A DNA stretch of 64,000 nt. It comes from an uncultured bacterium (GTDB lineage: Bacteria > Hydrothermota > Tepidihabitantia > SM23-42). The notes under the pieces are model-generated. The model saw only the letters and a program-made list of their open reading frames with translations. It was not told the origin of the DNA and did no database searches. The stretch spans positions 22,297 to 86,296 of the forward strand of contig CAYQPW010000005.1 in assembly GCA_964419565.1 (NCBI GenBank), in the 5' to 3' direction. The translations under genes and the position numbers were made by a program. Each line of letters starts with the position of its first letter. Within the stretch, counting starts at the first letter, position 1. This document shows positions 9,199-58,795 of the stretch, in pieces.

Positions 9199-10746
9199 TT
9201 ACTCGGCTCGATCAAGAAGTTTATCAACGGTCATATCATACAGATATGCTGCACTGCCCGGTGCCTGAAATGCATCGAGTTGTTCTCCCATAATATCGAG
9301 ATAGGACTTAAAGAGTCTTTTTTCATCGATACCTTGCGATGTTGCGATATGTGAAAAGACAAACCAGGCTCTTTTGTTGCCTTTTAACCGTGCAAGATCA
9401 TAGTAATATTTAGCCCACTGTGACCGGGATTCAATACCGCAGACATATTGTGTTTGAAAACCGTATCTACTATGATAGTAAAGAAACGCATTGAGCGAGG
9501 CATAATAAACATATATCATATCTTCTTTTTGCCAGTTCGCCTCAACATAATCCAGCGTGCTGCGGAGTTCTTCTGGAGCACGCGGTCGGATGAGGTGATA
9601 ACCGGCGAGCAATACCGGTTGGACAAGCAGGATACAGACAATGGCCAGTCCGAGGAAATTCGATCTGGTCTTCAATTTCAATTGGATATCACTGATACCT
9701 TGAGCAATAATGAGGACCATAAAGGGTGTCAGAAAGAGCAGGAGCCTGCCCTCAAAAGGGTAACGATGTAAACCTGATGCAAAAAGAGCCAGGCATATCG
9801 GTGAAATAATGAGCAGGAGGTGTATTTTTTTATTCTTAAACATGAGGAAACAGCCCCAGAAAAACGCCAGGACCGCTAAGAATAATTCATATACAGAAAG
9901 CCCAACCGGGAATTTAAAAGTCCGTAAAAAGACATAGCCAAACCATTTAAGATCAGTCAATGAAGTCGGTGGTAAGGGCATGAAACTCTTTTGCCAAAAG
10001 GTCATCAGGTTCTTACTCTGACTGAGGTCGCTCAATGTAACTAGATAATTGATAACAAAGCTGCCCAAACCAAATATCGTGGCAAAGGCCAGCCCGGGTA
10101 TCTTAGTATATGAACGCTTGTGCAGTATATAAAGAAACATGGTAACGAGACTTCCACCGAATACAAAGAGAGCGGGGTGTGAGAACCAAAGACAAAGTCC
10201 GCCGATAAAACCGAAGAGCAATAAGTATTTTATATTAAATCCCTTGTTAAATACGAGCATGGTCAGCCAGATAATCAAAAGTGCGATAAGAACATCACTG
10301 GAATATTGCTTCACTTCTGATGCAAAATATATCAGGTGGTCGCCAACAGCAAAAAGAACCAGGCCTATTATAAGCGATTGTCTGCTTATGATCTTTTTGC
10401 CGACCTCATAAAAAAAGAATAGTGCAGCGACCCCTGCGATCAACGGAAAAAGGCGCAGTCCATATTCATTTGCTCCAAAAAGGCTACTGATAGATTTCTG
10501 TATTAGTAAAAAGCCGACCGGAGCAGCCTGAACATAATCCAGGGGTTTGAGCAATTGTGCATACGAACGCTGGACAATATTCAAGGCGAGCGCAGCTTCA
10601 CCTTCAGTCAGCGAGCGATTAAAAATATACTGAGCAAGCCTTAAGATAATACCGACTAAGATAATGAAAAATGAGATTACTTTTTGAGTAAAGATAGGAA
10701 ATTCTCTTCTGTTTGCTTCAGCCATTTTCCTCATTATAACAAACAA
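9199..10746 (-). CDS. Polytopic membrane glycosyltransferase, GT39/GT83 (ArnT/PMT-like) family
   Basis: It has more than 10 predicted TM helices. The N-terminal region 'ILRLAQYIFNRSL..DEAALALN' and overall layout are typical of ArnT/PMT-like dolichyl/undecaprenyl-phosphate sugar transferases. Confidence 0.5.
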   Translation of the reverse strand: MFVIMRKMAEANRREFPIFTQKVISFFIILVGIILRLAQYIFNRSLTEGEAALALNIVQRSYAQLLKPLDYVQAAPVGFLLIQKSISSLFGANEYGLRLFPLIAGVAALFFFYEVGKKIISRQSLIIGLVLFAVGDHLIYFASEVKQYSSDVLIALLIIWLTMLVFNKGFNIKYLLLFGFIGGLCLWFSHPALFVFGGSLVTMFLYILHKRSYTKIPGLAFATIFGLGSFVINYLVTLSDLSQSKNLMTFWQKSFMPLPPTSLTDLKWFGYVFLRTFKFPVGLSVYELFLAVLAFFWGCFLMFKNKKIHLLLIISPICLALFASGLHRYPFEGRLLLFLTPFMVLIIAQGISDIQLKLKTRSNFLGLAIVCILLVQPVLLAGYHLIRPRAPEELRSTLDYVEANWQKEDMIYVYYASLNAFLYYHSRYGFQTQYVCGIESRSQWAKYYYDLARLKGNKRAWFVFSHIATSQGIDEKRLFKSYLDIMGEQLDAFQAPGSAAYLYDMTVDKLLDRAE

Positions 10747-10896
10747 ACCTGCTAAGTCAACCCTGGTTCGAATGACAATGAGCTTGACAGCGCCACTAAA
10801 ACAGGTAGAATATCTTTATGATTCTATTATTTGAACGGCAAGAACCTTCAATCAAGCAAATTATACCAACGAGGCCATGTTTTTCTTATCTGCGTA

Positions 10897-11839: not shown

Positions 11840-13699
11840 ATGGCAATTTTAAAAAGTATCAAAGGTCCTAAAGACCTCAAAGATCTAACCCTCGCGCAAC
11901 TACATGTACTCGCTCGGGAGATCAGAGAAGAAATAATAAATAGCTGTGCTCAAACCGGCGGTCATGTCGCGCCTTCACTTGGCGTAGTAGAATTGACCAT
12001 AGCATTATACCGGGCATTTGATGCGGATGTAGATAAGATCATCTGGGATGTGGGGCATCAGACTTATGCTCAGAAACTTATCACCGGTCGTTATCCGAAA
12101 TTCCACACGCTAAGAACATACAAAGGCATAAGTGGTTTTCCTAAACGGAAAGAATCTAAATATGATGTTTTCGATACCGGGCATTCATCAACTTCCTTGT
12201 CTGCTGCTACCGGCTTTGCACTGGCAAGGGATCTCAAAGGTGATAATTTCCAGATCATAAGTGTCATTGGTGACGGATCCTTGGGAGCTGGTATTGCTTT
12301 TGAAGCACTCAATCATTTGGGTCATTTAAAGAAGGATATTATCGTTATATTGAACGATAATGAACGTTCGATCGGCGATACGGTCGGTGCCTTGTCACAA
12401 TACCTGACAAGGGTTATTACAACGCGGACGTACAATCGTTTTCGCGACGACCTGTGGAAATTTCTTGGAAAATTCCCACCCTATACAAGAGACCGGAGCA
12501 GGAACCTTGCCAAGCTCCTACAAGAGGGATTAAAAGGTCTTTATGCACCCGCCGTGATCTTTGAAGAGCTTGGATTCAGATATATCGGACCGCTCAACGG
12601 GCACAAATTGGGAGAAATGATCGACACTTTTGAGCGCGTAAAAGAAATGAAAGGGCCAAGGATTATTCATGTTGTAACAAAGAAAGGCAAGGGCTTTGAA
12701 GCCGCGGAAAAATATCCTGAAGCATTTCACGGCATCGGTCCTTATTGCCCGCAAACCGGTAAAACGGAAAGCAAAGGACAATCATGGACATCAATATTCG
12801 GTGATACCGTGGTAGACCTTGCGAAGAAAAACAAGAAGATCGTTGCGATAACTGCCGGGATGTGTCTGGGTACTGGTTTAAAGAAATTTCGTGAAGAGAT
12901 CCCCGATCGTTTCTTTGATGTCGGTATTACCGAACAACATGCCATCACTATGGCCGCCGCCCTTGCCATTGAAGGATATATACCGATATGTGCGATCTAC
13001 TCGACATTTCTTCAACGAGCTTATGATCAGGTGATCCATGATGTGTGTCTGCAGGATGTACCTGTTATCTTTGCGGTTGACCGTGCTGGTCTGGTTGGTC
13101 AGGATGGTCCAACCCACCATGGTCCATTCGACCTTTCATATTTCAGATGTATACCTAATATGATCATCGGAGCACCAAAAGATGGCAGTGAATTGGTTGC
13201 GATGCTCAGAACCGCAGTGACTCAACGTGAACATCCGTTTGCAATACGTTATCCCCGAGGTGACTGTACGACGGTTGATGAAAATATCCCTCAGACTCTG
13301 CCCATCGGCAAATGGGAAGTTCTTAAAAAAGGCCGGGACATAGCAGTGATCGCGGTCGGCTCGATGGTCAAAGAAGCGCTTGGTGCCCAGGTGCTTTTAA
13401 AGAAAAAGTCGATCGATCCAATGATGATCAACGGGCGCTTTATCAAACCGCTCGACAATGAAATGCTACGGGAATTGCCAAATAGTGTTCATACGATAGT
13501 AACGGTCGAAGAAAATACGCTCAGTGGAGGTTTTGGCAGTGCGATTATGGAATACTATTCAAATACCAAAGCGCCAATAAAAGTTTACTGTATTGGCCTG
13601 CCGGATAATTTCATTGAGCATGGTGCCAGAGATATTCTTTTGGATCTGACCGGGCTCAATGCCAAGGGTATTGCCGATAAAATAGCTTCTTTTAAATGA
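11840..13699 (+). CDS. dxs: 1-deoxy-D-xylulose-5-phosphate synthase
   Basis: The N-terminus 'ILKSIKGPKDLKDL..GGHVAPSLGVVELTIALY..WDVGHQTYAQK' and the TPP-binding 'GDGSLGAG' are canonical DXS. The length is 619 aa. Confidence 0.92.
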   Translation: MAILKSIKGPKDLKDLTLAQLHVLAREIREEIINSCAQTGGHVAPSLGVVELTIALYRAFDADVDKIIWDVGHQTYAQKLITGRYPKFHTLRTYKGISGFPKRKESKYDVFDTGHSSTSLSAATGFALARDLKGDNFQIISVIGDGSLGAGIAFEALNHLGHLKKDIIVILNDNERSIGDTVGALSQYLTRVITTRTYNRFRDDLWKFLGKFPPYTRDRSRNLAKLLQEGLKGLYAPAVIFEELGFRYIGPLNGHKLGEMIDTFERVKEMKGPRIIHVVTKKGKGFEAAEKYPEAFHGIGPYCPQTGKTESKGQSWTSIFGDTVVDLAKKNKKIVAITAGMCLGTGLKKFREEIPDRFFDVGITEQHAITMAAALAIEGYIPICAIYSTFLQRAYDQVIHDVCLQDVPVIFAVDRAGLVGQDGPTHHGPFDLSYFRCIPNMIIGAPKDGSELVAMLRTAVTQREHPFAIRYPRGDCTTVDENIPQTLPIGKWEVLKKGRDIAVIAVGSMVKEALGAQVLLKKKSIDPMMINGRFIKPLDNEMLRELPNSVHTIVTVEENTLSGGFGSAIMEYYSNTKAPIKVYCIGLPDNFIEHGARDILLDLTGLNAKGIADKIASFK

Positions 13700-16600
13700 A
13701 TTTGATTCTTTCATTCATTTTATTTTCACAATTATCAACACCGTACGAAACACAGATCTTTCTCGATGCTGATGGGTCTTTTCTGGTCTATGCACGTTTT
13801 TACCAGGGTGAATTCATCGCTATCGATAGTATCGTAAGCGTTGATAAATACCTCGGTATCGGCCTTAAGGGGCACAATCGTGAAAGGCTGTTAGGTGAGC
13901 TTAAGAAGAGTCTTGTTCAACAGGGCGGTTATGCGAGTCAAGGTCTTTTTAGCACATTTGAGATACCTTTGCCAAAAGGCAGCTTCAGTGATTTTATGGG
14001 AGAAACCGGTAAGCTCGACGTCGGTGGTCATGTTAAGATCACAATCGGCGGCAGTGAGACCTTTATTTCTAACTTGCCTGAACAAAAGTTCTCCTGGCTC
14101 CCTGAGCTTGAAATGAAGCAAGAGATGTCGATAAAACTCGACGGTGAAGTCGGGGACCGGATGCGTGTTTTTATCGACCACAATTCAGAAAGGGTGAATG
14201 AGTCAGAGAATAAGATCACCGTGACATACCGGGGACATGAAGATGAGATCATTCAGGAGATCGAAGGTGGTGATACCCAGTTATCTATTCCTGCTACTAC
14301 ATATACTGGCGACATCCCTTCACACCGCGGTCTTTTTGGGATCAAATCTTCTGCCAAATTAGGGCCTTTAGACATCGTTGCGATCGCATCAAAAGAACGA
14401 ACCCAGACTCAGGAGATCGAGATCGAGGGATCAGCACAGGTCCAGTATGACACAACCTGGGCAAAGTATTTTGAACGCCGCCGGTTCTTTTTTCTAGGTA
14501 CACTTGATTCTATCGTTGAACTCAGAGTCTATCTTGATGATAATGATAACCAGAACGATAATCAGGGTATTACGTTCTTTGCCAATGCTTACCTCGACAT
14601 AAACGATGATAATATCCCGGACGATACAGTCATTCAAACGAATACCCAAAGCGGCTACTACACGCTAATGAGGGAGGGACTGAGTGATTTCTATTTGCGT
14701 GTCCCGCGTTCGAATATTATCGAATTAAACTATCAGCTGCCTGAGAATCAGGTGCTCGCGGTGTGGTATACAAAGATAAATGGCGCAGGACAGTATGACA
14801 CGGTCGGTATGATAACGGATTCTATACATAGTGATACGATGCAGCTTAAATTGATCTGTCCAGATGTCCTCGATACCCTGTCCTATACATGGAATTACGA
14901 GAAAAAGAATTATTACCAGATCGTATCACCGGGTTCTAAACTCGATTCGCTCCGGATATACTATATAACATCCGGTGGCGAACATCAAGATAACCAGGAT
15001 GGTGTATCTTATCTCCAGCTCCTCGGGCTTGACAATAACGGCGATAATCTGGTCGATGAAAACATTACTTTTTTCCAGGGTCGGGGTTTGCTTATTTTCC
15101 CGGACAGCATGCCCTTTGCCTCGAGTGCACTCGTTAATCCTGATCCTGAAATTTATACGGATCCATATATGACTGGACTCGGCGATTACTATTTATATAA
15201 AAAGACGGTTCAGGCAAAAGCTGTTTACACATTACCCGAGAATGTTGAAAAAGTAACCGTGTATATCGATGATATTGAGCAGGATTCGACGAGGGACTAT
15301 CATGTCGACTATGACGGCGGTGTCCTCGAGTTCAGAAAACCGATATTGCCGACGCAAAGGGTCAGGATCAAGGTTGAGTACTCGCCATTCTTTTCAGCTG
15401 CAGAAAAATCTCTTGTCGGAGTGCGCGGCACTTTGCGGCCTTTTGGTGAAGCCATGCTCGGTTCATCTTTCTTTTACCGCACTGAATCGTATCCCATGGA
15501 GCATGTCCGGCTAAAAGAAGAGCCGTTCAACAGGATGGTATGGGAGGCGGATTTATCCTACCCGCAGGAACTTCCGTTTGTTACCAGGGCGGTTGATTGG
15601 CTACCTTTTATTGAAACGGAAACCCCTTCGCGTTCGATCGTCAATGTTGAGGGCGCTTATTCGTTTTCTGACCTCAATGCCAAAGGTGAGGTCTTTCTCG
15701 ACGATCTTGAGTCATCAACCGTGCTCAGCAATGATTTTTCAGTTGCCAAAGTGTCCTGGTCCCTGTGTTCGAAACCGATCGAACAGGATACGGTAAATTA
15801 TGTCCAGAACCGGTTGATCTGGTATAATCTGCGCGACGATGAGGTTCTTCAGGCAGACGATATATATCAAGATCCAATAGATCCGAATGAAGCGGCTGAC
15901 GTTTTAAAGATGGTTTTTCATCCGGATCACGATGCATCATTTGGCGGTTTAACTCAATATATCTACAGTGAAGATTTTGACGATATCGAGAATCTAGAAT
16001 TGATAATCAAAGGCCGTGGTGGTATTATCCATGTTGATTTTGCGCAGGAAATAAGCGAAGATCAGCTCCGGCGTAATAAAAACGGTGAGCTTGTCGGTTA
16101 CCAGATTTTCGATGATGAAGACAGCGACAATAATAATGTATGGAATCAATTGAATGAAGATACTGGTCTTGATAATGTCTATGCGAGTGATAATGCTTAT
16201 GTCCCGGGTGCTGCTGATGACGGCAATGATGATTATGAGATCAATGATTATACTGGCGGCACCAATGGGACTGAAGGGAACAAGCTATGGGATACTGAAG
16301 ATCTGGATAGGGACGGCAATTTAAACACGAAAAACCGCTATTTCAGCTATTCAGTAGACCTTGATGATACAACTTCAGCGCGCTATGTAAATAATGCCGG
16401 GTTGATAAACGGCTGGAAGATGTTTCGTGTTTCGATCAAGGATTCAACCCAAAGAGATACGGTCACGGGGCAGCCTGACTGGCACGATATAAAATACGTC
16501 AGGATTTGGTTCAATGGTTTTAGCGAAACTGAGACCTTAATGATATATAAATTGAGTGCCACAGGCAGTCGTTGGAAGAATAAGGGCATTACTGGTGATT

Positions 16601-19101
16601 ATGCACCAAGAGATGAGGCCTTCAGCCTTAGACCGGTTAATACCAAGACTCATTCATACTACAGATCACCGTATGCTAATGAATATGATGAATTCGGGCA
16701 GGAAAAAACTGAGGGAGGCTTGGAATTCCTGCTGGAAAATATCGGCCATGACCGTACCTGCATTGCGCAGCGCAGAACTGACGAGAACGAAGACTACCGG
16801 GCATATGACACGCTGACCTTTTATATGAATGCGCACAATAGCAATCCTCTCTTGTCTATTCGAATAGGGAGTGACAGCTTGAACTATTATGAATACACAT
16901 GCCAGTATGATAATGGTGACCTGGGGTTGAATAATTATCGGCTTTTCAAAGTCACTATGCAGAACTTCATTGACCTCAAGCGTGATCGAGACCCGGACAT
17001 TGATACAGTTAGTGATTCGACCTACACCGTTGTAGGAAATCCTTCATTGTCACATAACCAGTTTTTTGAAGTCAGGATCACCAACCAGTATCTTACATTG
17101 CTTAACGATACGATCTGGTTCAATGATATCAAGCTTAAAGCACCGAAAACAGAGATCGGCAGGACATTTCGCGGTAATGGTTCGATCACTTTTGCCGACC
17201 TTGCCTCCTTGAATTTTTCGTACGATGAATCGAACGGACGTTTTAAAAGGCTGTCTGAGTCAAAAGATATATCAACGACAAGTGCGGGCAAAGGATACGC
17301 GGTAGGTGGCAATATATCAATGGATAAATTCTTGCCAACGGATTGGTACTTCAGAATTCCAGTCAGTATGAGTTACCGGAACACTATACTTGAGCCTCGA
17401 TTCTCTTACTTTTCTGATGATGTTGAACTCGAAGGTACTGATCGCGAAGAACAAGAGTCAAAGACTATAATGCGTGCATATACCGTGAGTATTTCCAAAT
17501 CGCAATCAAAGAACTGGTTCTTAAGATATACGCTTGACCGGCTTACCTTTGACCACACGCGAAACCAGACTCTGTCACGCGCGGTACTCAGTGCCGATAC
17601 TTCGGATAATATGACTTACCGGGGTTCCTATGCACTCGTTCCCAATTTGAGTTTCAAATTACTCAAGCAGAAATTCTTTCCGCTGCCGAAGAATATAAGC
17701 ATCAGTGCTTTGTATACAGACAACATGGTCAAGGCTTATCATCGCTCGAATCTTGATGATCCTTATGAACCAACTATCGGTGGTGCTCAGCACCGGAAAA
17801 CCTTGACACCGACAATATCAGTTGCATATGCACCTCATTCTATTATCAATGCGGATTATACATTTACCCAGAACCGCGATTCAGTTTTTGCCAGCAAGAG
17901 ATATGGTGAGGAAGTCGGTCGTACACAGAATTTCAATGCATCTATTTCTCCAAATCTCAAGATCGTTACGCCTCGTTTCTCATTCAATTCATCCTATAGC
18001 GAGGATCATCGTTTTGAAATACGGCAGGATCAGGATTTGCGCAATGTGTCGAATACCGGCGCTTATGGTGTTGATGGCGCGATCATGATCGGCACGATAA
18101 TAAGACTTTTTACTAGATTGAGGGATGAAACCAAAGATTCACTTTATGCTTCAGGTTCACCGGGTTGGATCGCCAGACAAGTCGAGAAATTAACCAACTA
18201 CATACAGAATGTGCAATTCAATTATCGCCGTCAGAGTAGTTCTGATTATCTCAATGTCAAGTCAAGACCGGTCATCGATTACCAGTGGGGGCTGGTGGAT
18301 TCAATCCCGCCTGAGGATGTTGCCCCGGGCAGTTTCCCGGGACGGGGTAATACAGATACTTATGGTCTGTCATCTGGTATGACTTATAAGTTTCTCAGTG
18401 CCAATGGCAGGTATAGTGGTACGATCAATCGAACATTTAATTATGGCGGAGGGCAAACTAGAACAGAGAATGTATCATACCCGGATCTGAATGTCCGCAT
18501 TCAGAAACTTGAATCCCTGCCTTTTCTGAAAAAATGGTGTCGTAATTCATCGATATCCGGGAATTTTGGTCAAACATATGAAAAACGTTATGATATAGCT
18601 GCGGATTCGTTGACTGGCGAATTGGTTTCAGACTCCAAAACCCTGAATTTGTCGCCTTTGGCAAGCTGGCAAGCAAACTGGATCAAAGGGATATCTACAA
18701 CTATTGAAGCAAATTACTCAGAGACAAATAGCAATGAATATGCAGGCGGCGCAACGCCTGTTCAGTCAAAAATGATAATGCGCGGCGGATCAGCAAGTTT
18801 TGGCTATACTTTCAGTGCCCCGGGCGGGATAAATTTACCGCTGCTTAAGGGCATAAGATTTTCTTCCAACCTTTCTATAAGTTTGAGTGTAAATTACAGC
18901 CGTACAACTAACTTTTTCACCGATCTTCTCGTACCCGCGACAAATACAAGCACCTTGAGTTCAAGCGTCGGATTGTCATACAACTTCTCTTCATCAGTGA
19001 CCGGCGGCGGGAATTTCGATTATTCCCAAAATGACGATATGAATAGTGATCAGAATACGCGAAGGGTTGGTTTGAACGCCTGGGTGAATATCAACTTTTA
19101 A
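13696..19101 (+). CDS. Giant (1801 aa) secreted outer-membrane beta-barrel-type protein. It is a candidate T9SS translocon (SprA/Sov-like)
   Basis: It has a signal peptide and a composition rich in D/N/S/T/Y. Alternating hydrophobic beta-strand patterns run throughout, and it ends in Phe ('..LNAWVNINF') like an OMP beta-signal. An acidic DxDxDG-like calcium-binding-type segment sits at ~aa 800-880. Its size, and a context of six T9SS cargo genes, suggest SprA. It is translationally coupled to dxs (ATGA). Confidence 0.4.
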   Translation: MNLILSFILFSQLSTPYETQIFLDADGSFLVYARFYQGEFIAIDSIVSVDKYLGIGLKGHNRERLLGELKKSLVQQGGYASQGLFSTFEIPLPKGSFSDFMGETGKLDVGGHVKITIGGSETFISNLPEQKFSWLPELEMKQEMSIKLDGEVGDRMRVFIDHNSERVNESENKITVTYRGHEDEIIQEIEGGDTQLSIPATTYTGDIPSHRGLFGIKSSAKLGPLDIVAIASKERTQTQEIEIEGSAQVQYDTTWAKYFERRRFFFLGTLDSIVELRVYLDDNDNQNDNQGITFFANAYLDINDDNIPDDTVIQTNTQSGYYTLMREGLSDFYLRVPRSNIIELNYQLPENQVLAVWYTKINGAGQYDTVGMITDSIHSDTMQLKLICPDVLDTLSYTWNYEKKNYYQIVSPGSKLDSLRIYYITSGGEHQDNQDGVSYLQLLGLDNNGDNLVDENITFFQGRGLLIFPDSMPFASSALVNPDPEIYTDPYMTGLGDYYLYKKTVQAKAVYTLPENVEKVTVYIDDIEQDSTRDYHVDYDGGVLEFRKPILPTQRVRIKVEYSPFFSAAEKSLVGVRGTLRPFGEAMLGSSFFYRTESYPMEHVRLKEEPFNRMVWEADLSYPQELPFVTRAVDWLPFIETETPSRSIVNVEGAYSFSDLNAKGEVFLDDLESSTVLSNDFSVAKVSWSLCSKPIEQDTVNYVQNRLIWYNLRDDEVLQADDIYQDPIDPNEAADVLKMVFHPDHDASFGGLTQYIYSEDFDDIENLELIIKGRGGIIHVDFAQEISEDQLRRNKNGELVGYQIFDDEDSDNNNVWNQLNEDTGLDNVYASDNAYVPGAADDGNDDYEINDYTGGTNGTEGNKLWDTEDLDRDGNLNTKNRYFSYSVDLDDTTSARYVNNAGLINGWKMFRVSIKDSTQRDTVTGQPDWHDIKYVRIWFNGFSETETLMIYKLSATGSRWKNKGITGDYAPRDEAFSLRPVNTKTHSYYRSPYANEYDEFGQEKTEGGLEFLLENIGHDRTCIAQRRTDENEDYRAYDTLTFYMNAHNSNPLLSIRIGSDSLNYYEYTCQYDNGDLGLNNYRLFKVTMQNFIDLKRDRDPDIDTVSDSTYTVVGNPSLSHNQFFEVRITNQYLTLLNDTIWFNDIKLKAPKTEIGRTFRGNGSITFADLASLNFSYDESNGRFKRLSESKDISTTSAGKGYAVGGNISMDKFLPTDWYFRIPVSMSYRNTILEPRFSYFSDDVELEGTDREEQESKTIMRAYTVSISKSQSKNWFLRYTLDRLTFDHTRNQTLSRAVLSADTSDNMTYRGSYALVPNLSFKLLKQKFFPLPKNISISALYTDNMVKAYHRSNLDDPYEPTIGGAQHRKTLTPTISVAYAPHSIINADYTFTQNRDSVFASKRYGEEVGRTQNFNASISPNLKIVTPRFSFNSSYSEDHRFEIRQDQDLRNVSNTGAYGVDGAIMIGTIIRLFTRLRDETKDSLYASGSPGWIARQVEKLTNYIQNVQFNYRRQSSSDYLNVKSRPVIDYQWGLVDSIPPEDVAPGSFPGRGNTDTYGLSSGMTYKFLSANGRYSGTINRTFNYGGGQTRTENVSYPDLNVRIQKLESLPFLKKWCRNSSISGNFGQTYEKRYDIAADSLTGELVSDSKTLNLSPLASWQANWIKGISTTIEANYSETNSNEYAGGATPVQSKMIMRGGSASFGYTFSAPGGINLPLLKGIRFSSNLSISLSVNYSRTTNFFTDLLVPATNTSTLSSSVGLSYNFSSSVTGGGNFDYSQNDDMNSDQNTRRVGLNAWVNINF

Positions 19102-19119
19102 TGCAAGGTTTTCACTGTT

Positions 19120-19944
19120 ATGTTGAATAGATCAAAACACAGATTGCTCACCGCCCTCTTGGGTGGACTGCTGTTTTGGTTTGGTGCTCCTAAACCACTA
19201 TCTGCTTTTTCACCGTATGATCACTTTTTGGATTTTTGCCGTATTGGCGAGCGTGTACCTGGAACTTCGGGACATAAAAAGGCTCGGGATTATATCGTTA
19301 CGAAAATAGATAATCCGGTCGTGGATTCATTTTATACGCGCGGCTCCTGGTTTTACAATATATATAAAAAGTTTCCTGGCAACAAAACAAGGATCGGCAT
19401 TGCCGCACACTGGGATTCAGATATCGGATGCCCGGGTGCGAACGATGGCGGATCAGGCGTCGCCGTATTATTGAGTTTGATCGATACGCTGACACTCAAT
19501 CCTCCTGAAATCGGAGTCGATATAATTTTCTTCGATGGTGAAGATGTCGATAGGGCAGCTTTACTCGGGTCAAACTACTTTGCTTCAAAATGCATTGATA
19601 ATTATTCTTTCATACTTATTCTCGATATGATCGGCGATAAAGATCTACAGATTTTCCAAGAAGGTCATTCGGCAACATTTTTTCCTGAATTCGTGGATTC
19701 CATATGGCGTATCGGTATGCAACTGGCTCCTGCGGTTTTCGTGCCGGCAATAAAGTATTATATCATCGACGACCATTATTCACTCATCAAATATGGGATC
19801 AGGGCCATTGATATCATTGACTTCGATTATCCATATTGGGATTCTGAAGATGATACTGAGGATAAATGCAGTAAGGAGAGTCTGGATATCATGTATAGAT
19901 TTGTTTTAAGAATCGTATATCCTGAATTCCTTCCACGTGAATAA
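19120..19944 (+). CDS. Secreted M28-family metallopeptidase-fold protein (aminopeptidase or animal-type glutaminyl cyclase-like)
   Basis: It has a signal peptide. Metal-ligand motifs are spaced as in M28: 'AAHWDSD', 'NDGGSGVA', 'FFDGEDV', 'LDMIGD', 'DDHYS'. Confidence 0.5.
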   Translation: MLNRSKHRLLTALLGGLLFWFGAPKPLSAFSPYDHFLDFCRIGERVPGTSGHKKARDYIVTKIDNPVVDSFYTRGSWFYNIYKKFPGNKTRIGIAAHWDSDIGCPGANDGGSGVAVLLSLIDTLTLNPPEIGVDIIFFDGEDVDRAALLGSNYFASKCIDNYSFILILDMIGDKDLQIFQEGHSATFFPEFVDSIWRIGMQLAPAVFVPAIKYYIIDDHYSLIKYGIRAIDIIDFDYPYWDSEDDTEDKCSKESLDIMYRFVLRIVYPEFLPRE

Positions 19945-22690: not shown

Positions 22691-24199
22691 ATGATGTGTA
22701 GTTTTCTTATACTAACACTGCTGTCATTATCAGCTGACCTTCGCTGGGTAGAGGTTGATGTCTCGTTGTGGCAAGATGGTCGGGCAGATTTTGTATATAA
22801 AGTCCGCTGGCATGTCCCTTCTGGGACCATGAGTGGGTTCTATTTTCAGGAACAAACGGTCGTTCCTTATTTTGATTTTGATGATGCCTATGCGATCGAT
22901 GAATCTGGTACGAGGTACCCTCTTGAGATAAAAGATCTCGGCAATCAATACGATATAATCCTTGCCCGGGGAAAGAGGTTTGGTCCGGGCGAGATAACAT
23001 ATATTTTCCATTATGGCGGCGATCTTGGCCAAAGCGGTAATCTCGCTAAAACGGCGAGTGAATTCGGTGATCTTGTTGTCTTCCATTGGGCACCGACTCA
23101 ATGGGATGAGCCGCTTGAACACTATACGGTCTATGTCTACTATCCGATAACGGTCCCGGGTGAAGATGTTGACCCTGATGATTACGGATTTCGGACTGAA
23201 AAGTTCATGAATGAGAATTATTTGCTTTCATACTTTGGTCAGCCATACAAGGGCGAAACCTTTTTTACGGTTCGTATACATAAAAATAATGTAGACACCA
23301 AAGAGAAAATACTCATTCAGCAGTACGTGCCAGCTGAGTATTTTGAAACCGAAAAGTTCGGCACCATTGAGATCATACCAGAAAGTCAAAAGAGATTTTC
23401 TTTTCCCTTTGAAGTACTCTGGATGATACTGTATGTCGTCCCTTATATATTCTTCAATAACAAGAAAGCAAAGCGCATAAAGGGAGCATACAGTGATGTT
23501 GCCAGTCTCAAATGGCTGCGCGACGACTGGGTACCACCAAAGCTCGAAGTGGCTACTTTCCGTAAATCTGGTAAGGTCGCTAAACTCGATCTCATTGAGG
23601 CCGCTTTATTGCTAGATTATCCAGTCAACAAAGTGCTGACCATATTAGCATATAAACTGCAGGATAATGGTCTGCTCGATATCACATCACGTCAGCCCAT
23701 GAAGATAAAGATTCTCAAGAGACCGACTGGATTGCGGTATTATGAAACAGGTTTTCTTGATGCCGTGAAATCCGACGGGACATTAGATGAAGCGGGTCTC
23801 AAAGCATTGATAACTCAGGTCGTCGAAAAGATATCTGCCAAATCCTGGGATTGTGACATAAAGGCGACAAAACTCTATTATGAAGAGAAAATAGGAAGTC
23901 CTTCTCCAGATATCGATCCAGAATACAATAAATCTGAATATTATGATTATCTGTCAGGACGCTCGTTTGCCAGACAGGGATATTTTAATGAAACAGAATC
24001 CGCTTTTGTCGTGTATGGGGCACCGATTAAAAGTTATTCTGCATTCGTGGCTTCTGATGCCTGTCACAGTGCTTGTTATGTACATACTGCCTGCCATGAC
24101 GCTTGTCATTCGGCATGCCATTCAGCCTGTCACTCGGCATGCCATTCAGCCTGCCACTCGGCGTGCCATTCAGCCTGCGTGAGCGGAGGAGCGCATTAA
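22691..24199 (+). CDS. Bitopic membrane protein (DUF2207-like layout) ending in a periodic (A-C-H-S)n Cys/His-repeat tail
   Basis: It has an N-terminal signal/anchor and a central TM ('FEVLWMILYVVPYIFF'). The C-terminus is 'DACHSACYVHTACHDACHSACHSACHSACHSACHSACHSACVSGGAH'. The N-terminal domain 'VDVSLWQDGRADFVYKVRWHVPSG..GFYF' resembles the DUF2207 start. Confidence 0.7.
   Translation: MMCSFLILTLLSLSADLRWVEVDVSLWQDGRADFVYKVRWHVPSGTMSGFYFQEQTVVPYFDFDDAYAIDESGTRYPLEIKDLGNQYDIILARGKRFGPGEITYIFHYGGDLGQSGNLAKTASEFGDLVVFHWAPTQWDEPLEHYTVYVYYPITVPGEDVDPDDYGFRTEKFMNENYLLSYFGQPYKGETFFTVRIHKNNVDTKEKILIQQYVPAEYFETEKFGTIEIIPESQKRFSFPFEVLWMILYVVPYIFFNNKKAKRIKGAYSDVASLKWLRDDWVPPKLEVATFRKSGKVAKLDLIEAALLLDYPVNKVLTILAYKLQDNGLLDITSRQPMKIKILKRPTGLRYYETGFLDAVKSDGTLDEAGLKALITQVVEKISAKSWDCDIKATKLYYEEKIGSPSPDIDPEYNKSEYYDYLSGRSFARQGYFNETESAFVVYGAPIKSYSAFVASDACHSACYVHTACHDACHSACHSACHSACHSACHSACHSACVSGGAH
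24101..24178 (+). repeat. In-frame 24-nt tandem DNA repeat (about 3 units, 'gcatgccattcagcctgtcactcg') encoding (ACHS)2 per unit
   Basis: There are three consecutive near-identical 24-mers at 24113-24184. Confidence 0.8.
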
Positions 24200-25560
24200 T
24201 GACATTCGAGATTTCAGATTCAGGATTTAAGAATTCCAAAGGAAATATTATCGAAGACGAACGACGATTTACGGATACGAGTTTTAATATCACCTGGGTC
24301 GATGAGTTTGTTGAAAAAATTAAGCCTTATGTCTTTGTGCGTGAGTTCGATAAGCTTTTGATCTTAATACCTAACCAGGCATATAAACTCAATGATGCTG
24401 GTGTTAGCACGCTTGATTTTCTGTTTAAGGGTCATTCGATCGAGGAGTTTCTAAATATTGTTGGTGATAATTCAGAGAAAAGAGAACAGCTGCATTATTT
24501 CTTCTGTGATCTCAGGGCAGCAGTGAACGGCTGCTTACGTGAGGACGAAAACCGTCAAGCTGTGTCTTATTATGAATTCAGCGGCGCATTTACAGAATAT
24601 CCGGTACTATCGGAGATCGCGGTCACTTATCGATGTAATTTAAAATGCGATTTCTGCTATGTTGGCGATCGTGATTATAATGAACTCAAGACGAGCGATA
24701 TGAAAAAGCTGCTCTTTAAGATATTAAAAGAAGCAAGGGTACCTTCAGTCAGTTTTACCGGAGGTGAACCACTGCTGCGTCAGGATATCGGTTTCCTCGT
24801 TGAATATGCACATGATCTCGGTCTCTGGACTAACCTCATTACCAATGGTACGCTTCTGGATATTGATAAAGTAACCGAGTTGAAAACCAGCGGTCTTTCG
24901 AGTGCTCAGGTCAGTATCGAAGGGCCAGACCCTAATATACACGACAGGATAACCGGGGTTACTGGATCATTCAACGCGACCGTTAAAGGAATTAAATCGT
25001 TACAAAAAGCAGGTATCCCGGTGCATACCAATACGACAGTTTCGCGAAACAACATCGATGAACTCATAGATATTCTCTTATTGATCAAAAGTATCGGTTT
25101 GAATCGCCTGTCAATGAACCTGCTCATCCCGTGCGGTGCCGCACGCCATAGAGAGGATATCTGGGTTTCATATTCAGAGATCGGCGATCATATACTAAAA
25201 GTAAAGCGGCGCGCTGACCAGGAGGGAATAAAATTCCTGTGGTATTCTCCCATACCGATGTGCAAATTCAACCCGGTCGCTTATGGATTTGGCAATAAAT
25301 CTTGTGCCGCGATCACTGGATTGTTGAGTCTCGATCCGATGGGGAATATCATACCATGCTCATCATGGCGAAAGCCTGTGGCATCACTTTTGAAAAGGAG
25401 ATTCCAGGACATATGGCAGTCTTCGGTATTGAGTTTTTTCAAGAATATCGAGTATGCTCCGGACGAGTGCCATGAATGCCTTGAGTTTGATATCTGCAAA
25501 GGAGCATGTCCTCTGTATTGGGCGGCTCAGGGTAAAGAGGAGCTCGATGACCGAACATAA
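24199..25560 (+). CDS. Radical SAM/SPASM-domain peptide-modifying enzyme with an N-terminal PqqD-like RRE domain
   Basis: 'AVTYRCNLKCDFCYVG' is the CxxxCxxC motif, and 'SFTGGEPLL' is present. The C-terminal SPASM cysteines are 'CAAITG..CSSW..CHEC..CKGAC'. The N-terminal ~140 aa '..LLILIPNQAYKLNDAGVSTLDFL.KGHSIEEFLNIV' fits the PqqD/RRE pattern. The start overlaps the upstream stop as TAATG, with GGAGG 8 nt upstream. Confidence 0.8.
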   Translation: MTFEISDSGFKNSKGNIIEDERRFTDTSFNITWVDEFVEKIKPYVFVREFDKLLILIPNQAYKLNDAGVSTLDFLFKGHSIEEFLNIVGDNSEKREQLHYFFCDLRAAVNGCLREDENRQAVSYYEFSGAFTEYPVLSEIAVTYRCNLKCDFCYVGDRDYNELKTSDMKKLLFKILKEARVPSVSFTGGEPLLRQDIGFLVEYAHDLGLWTNLITNGTLLDIDKVTELKTSGLSSAQVSIEGPDPNIHDRITGVTGSFNATVKGIKSLQKAGIPVHTNTTVSRNNIDELIDILLLIKSIGLNRLSMNLLIPCGAARHREDIWVSYSEIGDHILKVKRRADQEGIKFLWYSPIPMCKFNPVAYGFGNKSCAAITGLLSLDPMGNIIPCSSWRKPVASLLKRRFQDIWQSSVLSFFKNIEYAPDECHECLEFDICKGACPLYWAAQGKEELDDRT

Positions 25561-48886: not shown

Positions 48887-50584
48887 ATGAAAACATGTAG
48901 AGTATTAATCGTATATTCAATAATGATTGCAGCATCTTCAGCACAGTCGCCGGGTGATATAATCGGCTACACGTGGTATGAGTTCCAGGCAAATGGTTCG
49001 TATGGGCAGCGGATTGATGTCGATGATTTACGACAAGCACATATTGTCTGGACCAAGATGGATGCTGCTGCTACAACCCGTTATGTCGCATGGAACCTTC
49101 GGTATTCAGATGGTTCTTATTATGGTGAAACTCAGGCTTCTCCTTCCTGGAGCGGTTATGTCCAGATGGATATTACACGCGACCTGGATCCATACATGCA
49201 AAGAACAGTGATCGTTTACAACTATAATCCGGGTACTGATTATTATTCATGGATTGATATTGATGCAGGTAATGGTTGGGGATCATGGCCCAATACACCT
49301 GGAACACCTGGTATGCCTGGCCATATTTGGCCATATATAGCAGTCGCGAACAATAATAATTTTGTCTTAGCGACTGGTGATAAGGGTGGGAATATGCACC
49401 ATATATATGTTAGTATATACGAAGGGGTGACATGGCTATATATTGCTGGTTTTGATTCTTGTGCAACGTTATCGCAGTTTGTGCGGGCATCAGAAAAACG
49501 TGATACAAACAAAGCAGCTTTTGTCCATACTCAGTTCATCACCGATACTATTGCTGGCGGTCAACTAGACAATGATGTTTATCATAGGATCTCTGATGAT
49601 GGTGGTATTACCTGGGGACCGCATACGAATATTACTGATTATCAGCCTTCTGATTCGGTCCGCGCTTACAATAACGTCAATGCGGTATTTGATGATAATG
49701 ACTATCTCCATATTGTCTGGGCTGGGAGAAAAGTAGACAGTGCTAATTATTATCAGGCTTCGAAGATATTTCATTGGGACGAGTTCAATGATACGATAAC
49801 TGTAGTAAATAGCCCGAGTATTTATTATAATGAACCCGGGGGCTGGTGGATTGAAGGCTCTGCTGGCAACTTTAGCGCCTCGTACATGCCAGCTGATCAA
49901 CCACAGGTTGTATTCGACACGACAACGAGCTTTCTCTATTGTCTGTGGCATGGTAATGATGATACGACTGATGTTTCAGCGGCTGGTTTCTTCAATGGTG
50001 AATTATATGGCGCTTATTCGACTGATTACGGTATTACCTGGTCTGATTATGTTAATCTAACGAATACACGTTCACCTGGCGCTGGTTCTGGTTATTGTTA
50101 TGATGAGGATTATATGACTGCTTGTCCTAAAGTAGTGACAGATTCAATATTTGTTACTTATATTGAAGACAAGGATGCTGGTGCCTATGTTCATAACGAA
50201 GGTGTGAAAACTGAAAATCCAGTACGCTGCTGGGTATTCTGGACCGGGTTGATCAGGACCGGGCTAGAGGAAGAACATGCTTTAACACCCGAATTCCAAG
50301 AGCCAAGTTTGAATATAAATCCAAATCCTTTTGTAAAATCGGTCATGATCGATTTTAGCATAGGGCAAAGTGCTAAGGGCATGGGGCATGATGCAGAGGG
50401 CATAGAGCTAAGAATTTATGATGCGACCGGGAGGGTGGTGAAATCAATTACTCAGTTACATAATTACCCAGTTACATGGTCTGGTGACGACGAGACTGGC
50501 AACAAACTTCCAGCCGGTGTCTACTTTATCGAACTCATTAGTGGAGATAATATAATTTCAAAAAAGGTGATCAAGCTAAAATAA
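48887..50584 (+). CDS. T9SS-sorted BNR-repeat (sialidase/glycoside-hydrolase-like) secreted protein
   Basis: BNR motifs 'SDDGGITWGP' and 'STDYGITWSD' are present. There is a signal peptide with the 'ASSA|Q' site, and the C-terminus is 'GVYFIELISGDNIISKKVIKLK'. Confidence 0.65.
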   Translation: MKTCRVLIVYSIMIAASSAQSPGDIIGYTWYEFQANGSYGQRIDVDDLRQAHIVWTKMDAAATTRYVAWNLRYSDGSYYGETQASPSWSGYVQMDITRDLDPYMQRTVIVYNYNPGTDYYSWIDIDAGNGWGSWPNTPGTPGMPGHIWPYIAVANNNNFVLATGDKGGNMHHIYVSIYEGVTWLYIAGFDSCATLSQFVRASEKRDTNKAAFVHTQFITDTIAGGQLDNDVYHRISDDGGITWGPHTNITDYQPSDSVRAYNNVNAVFDDNDYLHIVWAGRKVDSANYYQASKIFHWDEFNDTITVVNSPSIYYNEPGGWWIEGSAGNFSASYMPADQPQVVFDTTTSFLYCLWHGNDDTTDVSAAGFFNGELYGAYSTDYGITWSDYVNLTNTRSPGAGSGYCYDEDYMTACPKVVTDSIFVTYIEDKDAGAYVHNEGVKTENPVRCWVFWTGLIRTGLEEEHALTPEFQEPSLNINPNPFVKSVMIDFSIGQSAKGMGHDAEGIELRIYDATGRVVKSITQLHNYPVTWSGDDETGNKLPAGVYFIELISGDNIISKKVIKLK

Positions 50585-57245: not shown

Positions 57246-57364
57246 TTATTATAGTCATTTTTAGAGAATTTTCAACTATACAAAATCGCTGTAGAATCTT
57301 GCCATTGACAGCATGCCGTGGATAAGTAGAATATATTTGGAGGTTTCCTACTCTTGGAGATTTC

Positions 57365-58795
57365 ATGGATATTTTCATAGATGACGGACAAAATGCAAGA
57401 CGATGCGGTTATGCAGTGGTTGTTATTCTATTATCATTTATAGCAGTTTTACCTTCAAGTGCACAAATAATATCAGGAGATGACAATAAGGCTCTATCTC
57501 AATTATTTTATGACCCTGATAGTCTGCCCGTATACGGCTGCAATATTATTAATTCATTTCCGCATGACAGCAATGCCTTTACTCAAGGTTTGATCTATGA
57601 GAATAACGCGCTTTACGAAGGCACAGGACTTTATGCTCAATCTACTTTACGCAAAGTTGAATTAACAACCGGTGCAATATTGAAAATACACTATCTTGAT
57701 AATAGTTATTTCGGGGAAGGCATAACGATGTGGCATGATACGATAATACAGATAACCTGGCGCGAGCACACTGGTTATGTATATATTGAACAGGCTACAT
57801 TTCAGGTGATCGACAGTTTCGGTTATAGCACTGAAGGTTGGGGATTGACCCATGACGACACGTGTCTTATTATGAGTGATGGGACTTCCAGGATTTACTA
57901 TCTTGACCCTCAAAATTATGTTGAGGTCGGTCATATTGACGTTGAAGCTGAGGGGATCCCGGTCGTTTATTTAAACGAATTAGAGTATATTCAGGGGAAT
58001 ATCTATGCAAATGTCTGGTACTGTGATTCAATAGCTATTATCGATCCTCAGACTGGTCATGTAACCGCTTGGCTAGACTTATCAGCATTGAGCTCAGGAC
58101 AGCCAAATGTACTGAACGGTATTGCCTATGATGGTGATGATGTACGTCTGTTCGTGACCGGTAAGCTGTGGCCGACGCTTTTTGAGATCGAAGTCGACCC
58201 CTTGAATTATCCGCCAGAGATAATCGCATTTTCTCCGCCATCACCGTGTTATATAAATATCGATAGTGTTCTTGTGCTGACGGTTATGGTACAGGATCCT
58301 GATCCCCAGGATTCCCTGTTTTATACCTGGAGCGTTAATGGAGTTATTGATACAATAGCTCATGATACGAGTTATTGTTACTCAAGTTCATCGGCAAGGA
58401 CCGATACCGTGATGTTCAGAGTCGATGACGGTATGTTTTGCGATTCAATAGTATGGGTCGTTATCGTTTCAGACCCCGGGGTCGTTGCTGAGAAATCTGA
58501 TCATATGACCAGTTCAGGAGTATTTTTATCATGTTATCCTAATCCCTTTTCAAAATCGATCGTGATCGACTTTAGCACAGGGCTGAGCACAGAAACCACA
58601 GAGCTGAAGATCTATGATGCAACCGGTAGAGTCGTTAGAGATTTTTCACTGTCCAGGGCTTATTCCCTAGTGCCTACTGTAATTCAGTGGGATGGTGCTG
58701 GCCAATTTGGTCTTCCAGTTCCAGCCGGTATTTATTTTGTTGTCCTTAAAGCAGAAAAACTCCGGGTCATAGAAAAAGTAGTCTTTTTATACTAA
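57365..58795 (+). CDS. Glutamine cyclotransferase (plant/bacterial beta-propeller type) fused to a T9SS C-terminal sorting domain
   Basis: 'FTQGLIYENNALYEGTGLYAQSTLRKVELTTGAIL' is the glutamine cyclotransferase signature, and later blades follow. The C-terminus is 'GIYFVVLKAEKLRVIEKVVFLY'. The signal peptide ends 'PSSA|QIIS'. Confidence 0.75.
   Translation: MDIFIDDGQNARRCGYAVVVILLSFIAVLPSSAQIISGDDNKALSQLFYDPDSLPVYGCNIINSFPHDSNAFTQGLIYENNALYEGTGLYAQSTLRKVELTTGAILKIHYLDNSYFGEGITMWHDTIIQITWREHTGYVYIEQATFQVIDSFGYSTEGWGLTHDDTCLIMSDGTSRIYYLDPQNYVEVGHIDVEAEGIPVVYLNELEYIQGNIYANVWYCDSIAIIDPQTGHVTAWLDLSALSSGQPNVLNGIAYDGDDVRLFVTGKLWPTLFEIEVDPLNYPPEIIAFSPPSPCYINIDSVLVLTVMVQDPDPQDSLFYTWSVNGVIDTIAHDTSYCYSSSSARTDTVMFRVDDGMFCDSIVWVVIVSDPGVVAEKSDHMTSSGVFLSCYPNPFSKSIVIDFSTGLSTETTELKIYDATGRVVRDFSLSRAYSLVPTVIQWDGAGQFGLPVPAGIYFVVLKAEKLRVIEKVVFLY

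What the first reader, a model, noticed from the sequence alone, without database searches (positions are those of the whole stretch)
57365..58795. Plant-type glutaminyl cyclase exported as a T9SS cargo, with cargo signal peptides ending 'SSA|Q'
- **The enzyme.** ORF 57365 has the beta-propeller glutamine cyclotransferase signature (FTQGL..YEGTG) and a T9SS C-terminal domain.
- **Known background.** In Porphyromonas, T9SS cargo commonly expose N-terminal Gln after signal-peptidase cleavage, and this Gln is cyclised to pyroGlu by a lipoprotein animal-type QC.
- **What is seen here.** At least two cargos (48887: 'AASSA|QSPG'; 57365: 'LPSSA|QIIS') have a predicted cleavage that exposes Gln.
- **Second candidate.** A separate secreted protein (19120) has the M28 fold shared by animal-type QCs.

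A QC that is itself a T9SS cargo, and itself begins with Gln, would be an interesting variant of the pyroGlu pathway.
Basis: partly seen in the sequence, partly recalled or inferred. Interest (0 to 1): 0.55.

Follow-up and report, generated by a model that had tools for sequence, protein, structure and literature searches.

The report
Secreted glutaminyl cyclase with T9SS export tail
This gene from an uncultured WOR-3/Stahlbacteria bacterium encodes a plant-type glutaminyl cyclase that carries a type IX secretion tail instead of the usual membrane anchor, an undescribed layout; the idea that the organism follows the Bacteroidetes 'glutamine rule' did not hold up.

Summary
ORF 57365-58795 (476 aa) has five parts:
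- a Sec signal peptide;
- a flexible linker starting at Gln34;
- a five-bladed plant-type glutaminyl cyclase (QC) propeller (PF05096, E=1e-87) with all catalytic residues intact;
- a PKD/Ig-like spacer;
- a type-A T9SS C-terminal domain (CTD).

About 47 orthologues, all from WOR-3/Stahlbacteria or unnamed metagenomic bacteria, share this layout. QC homologues from other phyla lack the tail and mostly look lipoprotein- or membrane-anchored.

The enzyme's own predicted mature N-terminus is Gln in 30/47 orthologues and Glu in 5 more.

The wider 'Q-rule' reading is not supported:
- In the homologue family of cargo ORF 48887, only 10/104 expose Gln.
- In a hand-curated set of 26 exported proteins from this lineage, only 3-6 do.
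- Control sets give 11-13%.

- Its best solved relatives are the Bacteroidetes type II QCs.
- It lies directly downstream of the T9SS translocon gene sprA here and in four other WOR-3 loci.
- However, the zinc-ligand His is Asp in 115/121 family members.

Verdict: a new architectural variant of known parts, with moderate interest. Function is inferred, not shown.

The parts
57305..57332 (+). Promoter-like site TTGACA-16 nt-TAGAAT upstream of the QC gene.
   Evidence: It matches 11 of 12 consensus positions. This is a consensus match only.
57356..57359 (+). GGAG ribosome-binding site, ending 5 nt before the ATG at 57365.
   Evidence: Read directly from the sequence.
57365..58795 (+). Whole ORF: secreted plant-type glutaminyl cyclase, 476 aa plus stop codon.
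   Evidence: An identical protein, P0001, is already in public databases on contigs up to 115,892 bp.
57365..57463 (+). Signal peptide, aa 1-33 (MDIFIDDGQNARRCGYAVVVILLSFIAVLPSSA).
   Evidence: Heuristic score 5.97, the highest among the window's predicted signal peptides. The AlphaFold2 model shows a helix at aa 8-32.
57464..57526 (+). Predicted mature N-terminus Gln34 (codon 57464-57466) followed by a flexible linker, aa 34-54.
   Evidence: pLDDT is below 50 for aa 29-51. The aligned position is Gln in 30/47 orthologues and Glu in 5/47.
57527..58195 (+). Five-bladed beta-propeller QC domain, aa 55-277. Catalytic residues are E118 (57716-57718), N204 (57974-57976) and K267 (58163-58165).
   Evidence: PF05096 at 1e-87. 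PDB hits: 3mbr 8.8e-65, 3nol, 2faw. Foldseek target-normalised TM-score 0.84-0.92 to five QC structures. The catalytic residues are invariant in 47 orthologues.
58217..58468 (+). PKD/Ig-like beta-sandwich spacer, aa 285-368.
   Evidence: The model shows seven strands, with 10-residue block mean pLDDT of 85-96. Pfam gives only weak PKD_3 (E=0.009) and Big_9 (E=0.011) matches, below the cutoffs. The domain is conserved in orthologues (D311, D313, D316, W322, D347, D355, W364).
58523..58792 (+). T9SS type-A C-terminal sorting domain, aa 387-476.
   Evidence: PF18962 33.9 bits and TIGR04183 34.1 bits, both above cutoff. The model shows a beta-sandwich. An independent CTD HMM gives 55 bits.
19120..19944 (+). 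M28 protein of the Bacteroidetes type II QC clade, 274 aa, with a signal peptide or signal anchor and no lipobox.
13696..19101 (+). SprA/Sov T9SS outer-membrane translocon, 1801 aa. It ends 18 nt before the M28 gene starts.
   Evidence: TIGR04189 at 323 bits against a cutoff of 200. The gene order sprA-M28-HHH is conserved in four other WOR-3 loci.
48887..50584 (+). Some homologues carry BNR-repeat hits.

Best explanation
The gene encodes an active type I (plant-type) glutaminyl cyclase that is exported rather than tethered.

**Shown**
- Domain order.
- Intact catalytic residues.
- A conserved tail.
- A translocon gene in the same genome.

**Inferred pathway**
1. Sec exports the protein and signal peptidase I cuts after Ala33, exposing Gln34 on a roughly 20-residue flexible linker.
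2. The propeller folds in the periplasm.
3. The C-terminal domain takes it through the SprA translocon to the cell surface or the medium.
4. There it converts N-terminal Gln (and more slowly Glu) of exported proteins or peptides to pyroglutamate, capping them against aminopeptidases.
5. Its own N-terminal Gln is very likely one such substrate. It could be capped by itself, by a sister molecule, or by the M28 QC-like enzyme encoded next to sprA.

This is an enzyme-specific feature of the lineage. It is not part of a proteome-wide Q-rule.
For: **Identity and active site**
- PF05096 match at 1e-87, plus the CTD above curated cutoffs.
- Papaya QC residues E69, N155, K225, Q24, W110 and W169 map to E118, N204, K267, Q74, W159 and W218. 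All are invariant or nearly invariant in 47 orthologues.
- AlphaFold2 model: mean pLDDT 85.8, with separate propeller, Ig-like and CTD modules. Foldseek gives TM 0.84-0.92 to XcQC, ZmQC, papaya QC and MxQC.

**Export**
- 45/47 orthologues carry the tail by an independent HMM; 0/72 QC-only homologues do.
- Many QC-only homologues show a lipobox-like or hydrophobic anchor-like N-terminus by my heuristics, and only 1/54 has Gln at +1.
- SprA is encoded in the same window.

**Own N-terminus**
- Gln or Glu at the QC's own +1 position is enriched against the 48887 cargo family. By blind prediction it is 16/41 against 10/104, Fisher p=1.5e-4.

**Expression signals**
- The gene has its own promoter-like site and a ribosome-binding site.
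Against: - No activity or localisation data exist.
- T9SS function has not been demonstrated outside Bacteroidota.
- In this window only SprA clears its curated family cutoff. The C25+CTD protein matches the PorU model at only 25 bits against a cutoff of 420 and lacks a signal peptide.
- Few other exported proteins of the lineage expose Gln, so obvious substrates are scarce.
- T9SS cargo fold in the periplasm, so the enzyme could act there before export.
- Signal-peptide sites come from a home-made rule, not SignalP.
- The 47 orthologues are related, so the Fisher test overstates independence.
Confidence: 0.6

Rival explanations
1. The enzyme does its real work in the periplasm while waiting for export. 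It would be the lineage's general QC for signal peptidase I substrates, a Q-rule enzyme as in Flavobacteriia, and the tail only disposes of it or displays it.
For: - T9SS cargo fold in the periplasm before translocation (established knowledge of the system).
- Some exported proteins here do expose Gln: ORF 48887, a TonB-dependent receptor in L086, and possibly SprA, where Gln12 is conserved in 4/4.
Against: - The lineage sample shows no Q-rule: 3-6 of 26 curated proteins, and 10/104 in the cargo family, against 11-13% in controls.
- In Bacteroidetes about 87% of plant-type QCs are predicted lipoproteins (PMC5837995), and PgQC is inner-membrane associated. This clade has replaced that kind of anchor with an export tail.
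Confidence: 0.15
2. The enzyme acts on foreign peptides in the environment rather than on the cell's own proteins. For example it might cyclise Gln-peptides during extracellular protein degradation, releasing ammonia or altering peptide uptake or stability. The M28 protein beside sprA would then be the enzyme that handles the cell's own N-termini.
For: - Self-substrates with Gln at +1 are scarce.
- The M28 gene is tightly linked to sprA in 5/5 loci and belongs to the type II QC clade.
- Both genes coexist in one complete genome.
Against: - Conservation of Gln/Glu at the QC's own N-terminus shows that at least one self-substrate is under selection.
- No peptide transporter or protease is linked to the QC gene. 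Its neighbours are an FAD oxidase, a nitroreductase and a thioesterase.
- The M28 zinc-ligand His is replaced by Asp in 115/121 members, so its activity is uncertain.
Confidence: 0.15
3. The propeller is no longer a cyclase. It would serve as a binding or structural module of a surface protein.
For: - Beta-propellers followed by PKD/Ig domains are common in surface-layer and adhesin proteins. PDB 1l0q was the first non-QC structural hit.
Against: - All catalytic and substrate-binding residues are invariant across orthologues that are 44-78% identical to the window protein.
- The domain is 57-61% identical to QC-only enzymes of other phyla. That indicates strong purifying selection on the enzyme core.
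Confidence: 0.05

Closest known systems
Bacterial and plant type I glutaminyl cyclases (papaya QC 2FAW/2IWA, Xanthomonas XcQC 3MBR, Zymomonas 3NOL, Myxococcus 3NOK; Pfam PF05096)
   Same: - Same five-bladed propeller fold (TM 0.84-0.92, 36-48% identity).
- Same catalytic residues, E69/N155/K225 in papaya numbering.
   Different: - The known enzymes are single-domain proteins.
- The short homologues found here have no Ig-like domain or CTD, and many show a lipobox-like or anchor-like N-terminus.
- This one adds a cleavable signal peptide ending in A|Q, a PKD/Ig-like spacer and a T9SS tail.
Bacteroidetes Q-rule system (PgQC and plant-type QCs of Flavobacteriia; PMC5837995, PMC10653852)
   Same: - A QC in a T9SS-bearing bacterium with two membranes.
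- Some exported proteins, including the QC itself and possibly SprA, expose N-terminal Gln.
   Different: - In Bacteroidetes more than 48% (mean 71%) of signal peptidase I substrates start with Gln, and the QC is an inner-membrane lipoprotein.
- Here the sampled Gln frequency is near background.
- The plant-type QC has no lipobox and carries an export tail.
Bacteroidetes type II QCs (TfQC 6QRO, PgQC 6QQL, BtQC 4FUU/7D1D, PdQC 3TC8), compared with ORF 19120
   Same: - They are the best solved relatives (profile E = 8e-35 to 3e-25, full length). True aminopeptidases score 1.5e-15 or worse and match only partially.
- ORF 19120 keeps Asp-Gly (D109-G110), Glu-Asp (E141-D142), D169 and Trp240, hallmarks listed in PMC7948796.
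   Different: - Shorter (about 274 aa against about 310-330 aa).
- No lipobox, and +1 is mostly Lys, Arg or Glu.
- The His zinc ligand (PgHis299) is Asp241 in 115/121 members.
- The gene lies directly after sprA.
T9SS type-A cargo proteins (TIGR04183 / PF18962)
   Same: - Sec signal peptide, then a functional domain, an Ig-like spacer and a C-terminal beta-sandwich with PNPF...IYD.G...GIYF motifs.
   Different: - The passenger is a protein-modifying enzyme, not a hydrolase, adhesin or motility protein.
- The host is WOR-3/Stahlbacteria, where T9SS has not been studied.

Membership tests
Type I (plant-type) glutaminyl cyclase, PF05096 | Match to the family model above the curated cutoff. | tested here: met
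   294.1 bits against 22.3, covering profile positions 19-249 of 249.
Type I (plant-type) glutaminyl cyclase, PF05096 | Five-bladed beta-propeller fold. | tested here: met
   In the AlphaFold2 model most 10-residue blocks across aa 55-277 have mean pLDDT above 90 (range 84-96). Foldseek target-normalised TM-score is 0.84-0.92 with rmsd 1.5-2.5 A to 3mbr, 3nol, 2iwa, 2faw and 3nok.
Type I (plant-type) glutaminyl cyclase, PF05096 | Active-site residues E69, N155 and K225 (papaya numbering; PMC5837995), plus Q24, W110 and W169. | tested here: met
   They map to E118, N204, K267, Q74, W159 and W218 by the alignment to 2faw. All are invariant or at least 90% conserved in 47 orthologues.
Type I (plant-type) glutaminyl cyclase, PF05096 | Cyclisation of N-terminal Gln in vitro. 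| not testable with these tools
   This needs an H-Gln-AMC coupled assay.
T9SS type-A cargo | C-terminal sorting domain above the curated cutoff, located at the very C-terminus. | tested here: met
   TIGR04183 at 34.1 bits against 23; PF18962 at 33.9 against 27; aa 391-473 of 476. An independent HMM gives 55 bits.
T9SS type-A cargo | N-terminal Sec signal peptide. | tested here: met
   By a heuristic only: a charged n-region (RR), a 15-residue h-region and SSA at -3 to -1. SignalP was not available.
T9SS type-A cargo | T9SS machinery encoded in the genome. | tested here: inconclusive
   SprA/Sov is present (323 bits against 200). A C25+CTD protein matches the PorU model only weakly (25 bits against 420). 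PorV, PorK/L/M/N and PorZ were not looked for outside the window.
T9SS type-A cargo | T9SS-dependent secretion and removal of the tail. | not testable with these tools
   Requires an experiment.
Bacteroidetes Q-rule system | Most signal peptidase I substrates expose Gln at +1 (more than 48% in 332 of 334 species; PMC5837995). | tested here: not met
   10/104 in the 48887 cargo family, 1/115 in the M28 family, and 3 clear plus 3 ambiguous of 26 hand-curated exported proteins from WOR-3 loci. The sample is small and the predictor is crude.
Bacteroidetes Q-rule system | The QC is a lipoprotein held at the inner membrane. | tested here: not met
   There is no lipobox in ORF 57365 or its orthologues. 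They have a signal peptidase I type signal plus an export tail.
Bacteroidetes-type (type II) QC, for ORF 19120 | M28 fold, and closer to the solved bacteroidal QCs than to aminopeptidases. | tested here: met
   PF04389 at 1e-27. The family profile scores 6qro, 3tc8, 4fuu, 3gux, 6qql and others at 8e-35 to 3e-25. The best aminopeptidase, 2ek8, scores 1.5e-15.
Bacteroidetes-type (type II) QC, for ORF 19120 | Single-zinc ligand set Asp149 / Asp183 / His299 (PgQC numbering; PMC7948796). | tested here: not met
   D109 and D142 are conserved. The His position is Asp241 here and in 115/121 family members, and His in only 6.
Bacteroidetes-type (type II) QC, for ORF 19120 | Asp-Gly after the bridging Asp (it is Asn or Asp in aminopeptidases), and Trp before the last ligand (Tyr in aminopeptidases). 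| tested here: met
   D109-G110 and W240 are invariant in the family alignment (120-121 of 121 sequences).

The most novel reading that the evidence does not exclude
In WOR-3/Stahlbacteria, pyroglutamate capping has been moved from the inner membrane to the secretion route itself. An M28 QC-like enzyme, co-expressed with the SprA translocon, and a T9SS-exported plant-type QC would together cap selected cargo at or beyond the outer membrane. The exported QC's own conserved Gln/Glu N-terminus would be a self-capping device. That would be the first functional coupling of N-terminal cyclisation to type IX secretion, and the first example outside Bacteroidota.
Probability: 0.15. Interest if true: 0.65.

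Novelty: new variant of a known kind. Interest (0 to 1): 0.4.

Why it matters
**What is new**
- Bacterial QCs are described in the papers I read as periplasmic enzymes tethered to the membrane. The physiological role of type I QCs is called 'not fully known' (PMC7948796).
- A conserved clade in which the tether is replaced by an export tail suggests pGlu formation can be an extracellular or surface activity in bacteria.
- It also offers a compact, probably soluble QC for testing this.

**Second lead**
- The conserved sprA-M28 gene pair is an independent, testable link between a QC-like enzyme and the T9SS translocon.

**A useful negative result**
- The Q-rule does not extend to this T9SS-bearing lineage. 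This agrees with the published view that the rule is specific to Bacteroidetes.
- Nothing here overturns current understanding.

Tried and rejected
1. **Metagenome scan with the orthologue alignment.** The patterns came from the conserved QC core, so it returned only short QC-only genes from other bacteria. It gave no lineage sample, and I used those loci only as a control.
2. **Search of 1.84 billion representatives with a CTD profile.** The top 150 hits were mostly giant multi-repeat proteins of mixed and unknown origin (Gln at +1 in 14/109). It was useless for the lineage question.
3. **Genome-collection scan with the single protein.** It gave only 4 loci.
4. **A proteome-wide Q-value could not be computed.** Only about 370 kb of WOR-3-lineage DNA could be fetched, in 20-kb pieces.
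5. **The idea that A|Q is a general feature of this organism's cargo.** I rejected it after seeing the 48887 family.
6. **ORF 20282-22144 as a sixth cargo.** Pfam and NCBIfam find no tail there. Only my self-seeded HMM does, so it stays unverified.
7. **ORFs on the opposite strand inside the gene (57662-57934 and 58038-58244).** They are short and lie wholly inside the QC gene, so I treated them as spurious without further testing.
8. **Literature searches for a T9SS-exported QC, or T9SS in WOR-3.** They found nothing. The library is incomplete, so this is not proof of absence.

Full report
**1. What is at the coordinates**

ORF 57365-58795 (+) encodes 476 aa.
- Pfam gives PF05096 Glu_cyclase_2 at E=1e-87 over aa 51-277, and PF18962 Por_Secre_tail at 33.9 bits over aa 391-473.
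- NCBIfam gives TIGR04183 (type-A sorting domain) at 34.1 bits against a cutoff of 23.
- A promoter-like site (TTGACA-16-TAGAAT, 57305-57332) and a GGAG ribosome-binding site at 57356-57359 support the ATG at 57365.
- Short ORFs on the opposite strand lie wholly inside the QC gene. I took them to be spurious and did not test them.

**2. Enzyme identity**

- The best solved relatives are Xanthomonas QC 3MBR (8.8e-65), Zymomonas 3NOL and papaya 2FAW.
- From the 2FAW alignment, papaya E69, N155, K225, Q24, W110 and W169 correspond to E118, N204, K267, Q74, W159 and W218. These columns are invariant or at least 90% conserved in 47 orthologues.
- An AlphaFold2 model built on that alignment has mean pLDDT 85.8. 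It shows:
  - a signal-peptide helix at aa 8-32;
  - a disordered stretch at aa 29-51;
  - the propeller at aa 55-277;
  - a seven-strand Ig-like domain at aa 285-368;
  - a linker, then a beta-sandwich at aa 387-474.
- Foldseek against the PDB puts five QC structures first, with target-normalised TM-score 0.84-0.92.
- The middle domain gets only weak PKD_3 and Big_9 matches.

**3. Who else has it**

- The protein itself is already public (P0001, 100% identical).
- 47 further full-length cluster representatives (430-493 aa, 44-78% identical to the window protein) share the layout. Where named, they come from candidate division WOR-3, Candidatus Stahlbacteria or 'bacterium' MAGs.
- The other 72 listed hits are QC-only proteins, mostly about 270 aa, from other phyla.
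- An HMM built from the five other CTDs in this window finds the tail in 45/47 clade members and in 0/72 short homologues.
- By my lipobox pattern and h-region heuristic, many of the short homologues look like lipoproteins or have an uncleaved hydrophobic anchor. Only 1/54 has Gln at the predicted +1.
- In Bacteroidetes about 87% of plant-type QCs are predicted lipoproteins (PMC5837995).
- So this clade has swapped a membrane tether for a cleavable signal peptide plus an export tail.
- I found no paper describing a QC as T9SS cargo, or T9SS in WOR-3.

**4. Signal peptides and the 'Q' question**

SignalP was unavailable. I used a simple h-region plus -3/-1 rule that ignores the identity of +1, except for a penalty on Pro.
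- The rule reproduces LPSSA|QIIS (ORF 57365) and AASSA|QSPG (ORF 48887).
- In the QC clade the aligned position after the hydrophobic core is Gln in 30/47 and Glu in 5/47 (A|ETG in P0041/42/44/46/48), although the signal peptides themselves are very divergent.
- The blind predictor gives 16 Gln and 7 Glu of 41.
- Comparison sets:

| Set | Gln at +1 |
|---|---|
| 48887 homologue family (WOR-3 cargo; some BNR hits) | 10/104 |
| M28 family | 1/115 |
| Loci from other phyla | 13/115 |
| Mixed CTD-like set | 14/109 |

- Fisher test, QC clade against the 48887 family: p=1.5e-4. The sequences are related, so this is indicative only.
- Among 26 exported proteins that I curated by hand from about 370 kb of WOR-3-lineage loci (window, L001-L004, L085-L095), only 3 clearly expose Gln. 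These are the QC, ORF 48887 and a TonB-dependent receptor in L086.
- Three more are ambiguous: ORF 527, a cargo in L089, and SprA, whose 'MNxxxSxxLFxQ' start keeps Gln12 in 4/4 orthologues.
- Conclusion: the QC's own N-terminal Gln/Glu is a selected feature. A Bacteroidetes-style Q-rule (more than 48%, mean 71%; PMC5837995) is absent. That paper also reports a continuum of 2-77% outside Bacteroidetes, so a value near 10-25% is unremarkable.

**5. The second candidate**

- ORF 19120-19944 is Peptidase_M28 (1e-27).
- Its best solved relatives are the Bacteroidetes type II QCs: TfQC 6QRO at 3e-24, then 3TC8, 3GUX, 4FUU/7D1D and PgQC 6QQL.
- A profile of 35 family members scores these at 8e-35 to 3e-25 over the full length. 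The best true aminopeptidase scores 1.5e-15 over part of the sequence.
- Hallmarks that PMC7948796 lists for bacteroidal QCs are invariant: Asp-Gly (D109-G110), Glu-Asp (E141-D142), D169 and Trp240.
- However, the His zinc ligand (PgHis299) is Asp241 here and in 115/121 relatives.
- The family has a signal peptide or signal anchor with Lys, Arg or Glu at +1 and no lipobox.
- The gene starts 19 nt after the stop codon of ORF 13696-19101, which is SprA/Sov (TIGR04189, 323 bits against 200).
- The order sprA - M28 - HHH protein recurs in all four other WOR-3 contigs examined, including two complete genomes. In two of them the genes overlap.
- In CP070834.1 the M28 and QC-CTD genes coexist about 47 kb apart.

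**6. Interpretation**

- Shown: a QC-fold enzyme with an intact active site, a conserved T9SS tail, a conserved Gln/Glu at its predicted mature N-terminus, and a translocon gene in the same genome.
- Inferred:
  - export by the T9SS;
  - cyclase activity outside the cell or on its surface;
  - self-capping of Gln34;
  - a possible division of labour with the sprA-linked M28 protein.
- Periplasmic action before export cannot be excluded.
- The neighbours of the QC gene (an FAD oxidase, a nitroreductase and a thioesterase) give no functional clue.

**7. Verdict**

- This is a new architectural variant of two well-known parts. It is already auto-annotated in databases but, as far as I could find, not discussed.
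- Interest is moderate (0.4). The most useful leads are the exported QC clade and the sprA-M28 pair.

Noticed in passing
window 13696-19944, and L085-L088 at about 4590-10825: The gene for the T9SS translocon SprA is followed immediately by the M28 type II QC-like gene and then a small HHH (ComEA-like) gene. This holds in the window and in all four other WOR-3 loci examined, and the genes overlap by 22 nt in two loci. This conserved pairing of a QC-like enzyme with the translocon may be the more interesting lead.
   Followed up: yes
window 19120-19944, aa 241: In the WOR-3 M28 family the zinc-ligand His of bacteroidal and animal QCs (YWH) is Asp (YWD) in 115/121 members and His in 6. All other active-site residues are invariant. 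The effect on metal binding or activity is unknown.
   Followed up: partly
P0054, P0069, P0075 (hits): Some bacteria, where named Anaerolineales, encode single proteins of 567-805 aa that combine the plant-type QC domain (PF05096) with an M28 domain (PF04389). That puts both QC-associated folds in one polypeptide.
   Followed up: no
window 22691-25560; L085 11712-14803; L087 13685-16515: A roughly 500-aa protein with a weak DUF2207 match and a signal peptide ends in a Cys-rich repeat (...[36 protein letters not shown]). It is followed by a radical SAM/SPASM gene. The pair is conserved in two other WOR-3 loci and may be a peptide-modification pair.
   Followed up: no
window 3131-5762 (- strand): The Peptidase_C25 + CTD ORF (730 aa) has no signal peptide and matches only the last part of the C25 propeptide model. 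Sequence that looked to me like the missing propeptide part lies upstream in another reading frame; this was judged by eye and not tested. The same 730-aa gene call appears in an independent Logan assembly. It could be a frameshifted gene or an unusual start. Whether it is a PorU analogue or a gingipain-like cargo is unresolved.
   Followed up: partly
window 13696-19101: SprA here is 1801 aa, against about 2300 aa for the Bacteroidetes model. It has a very short hydrophobic N-terminus (MNLILSFILFS|QLSTPYE) with Gln12 conserved in 4/4 orthologues.
   Followed up: partly
window 48887-50584, and P0391-P0510: The homologue family of ORF 48887 (T9SS cargo; some members carry BNR-repeat hits) is large in WOR-3, with several members per contig. 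There are two N-terminal forms: the SPGD core directly after the signal peptide, or an added '...EPLPKLRGDE' extension.
   Followed up: partly
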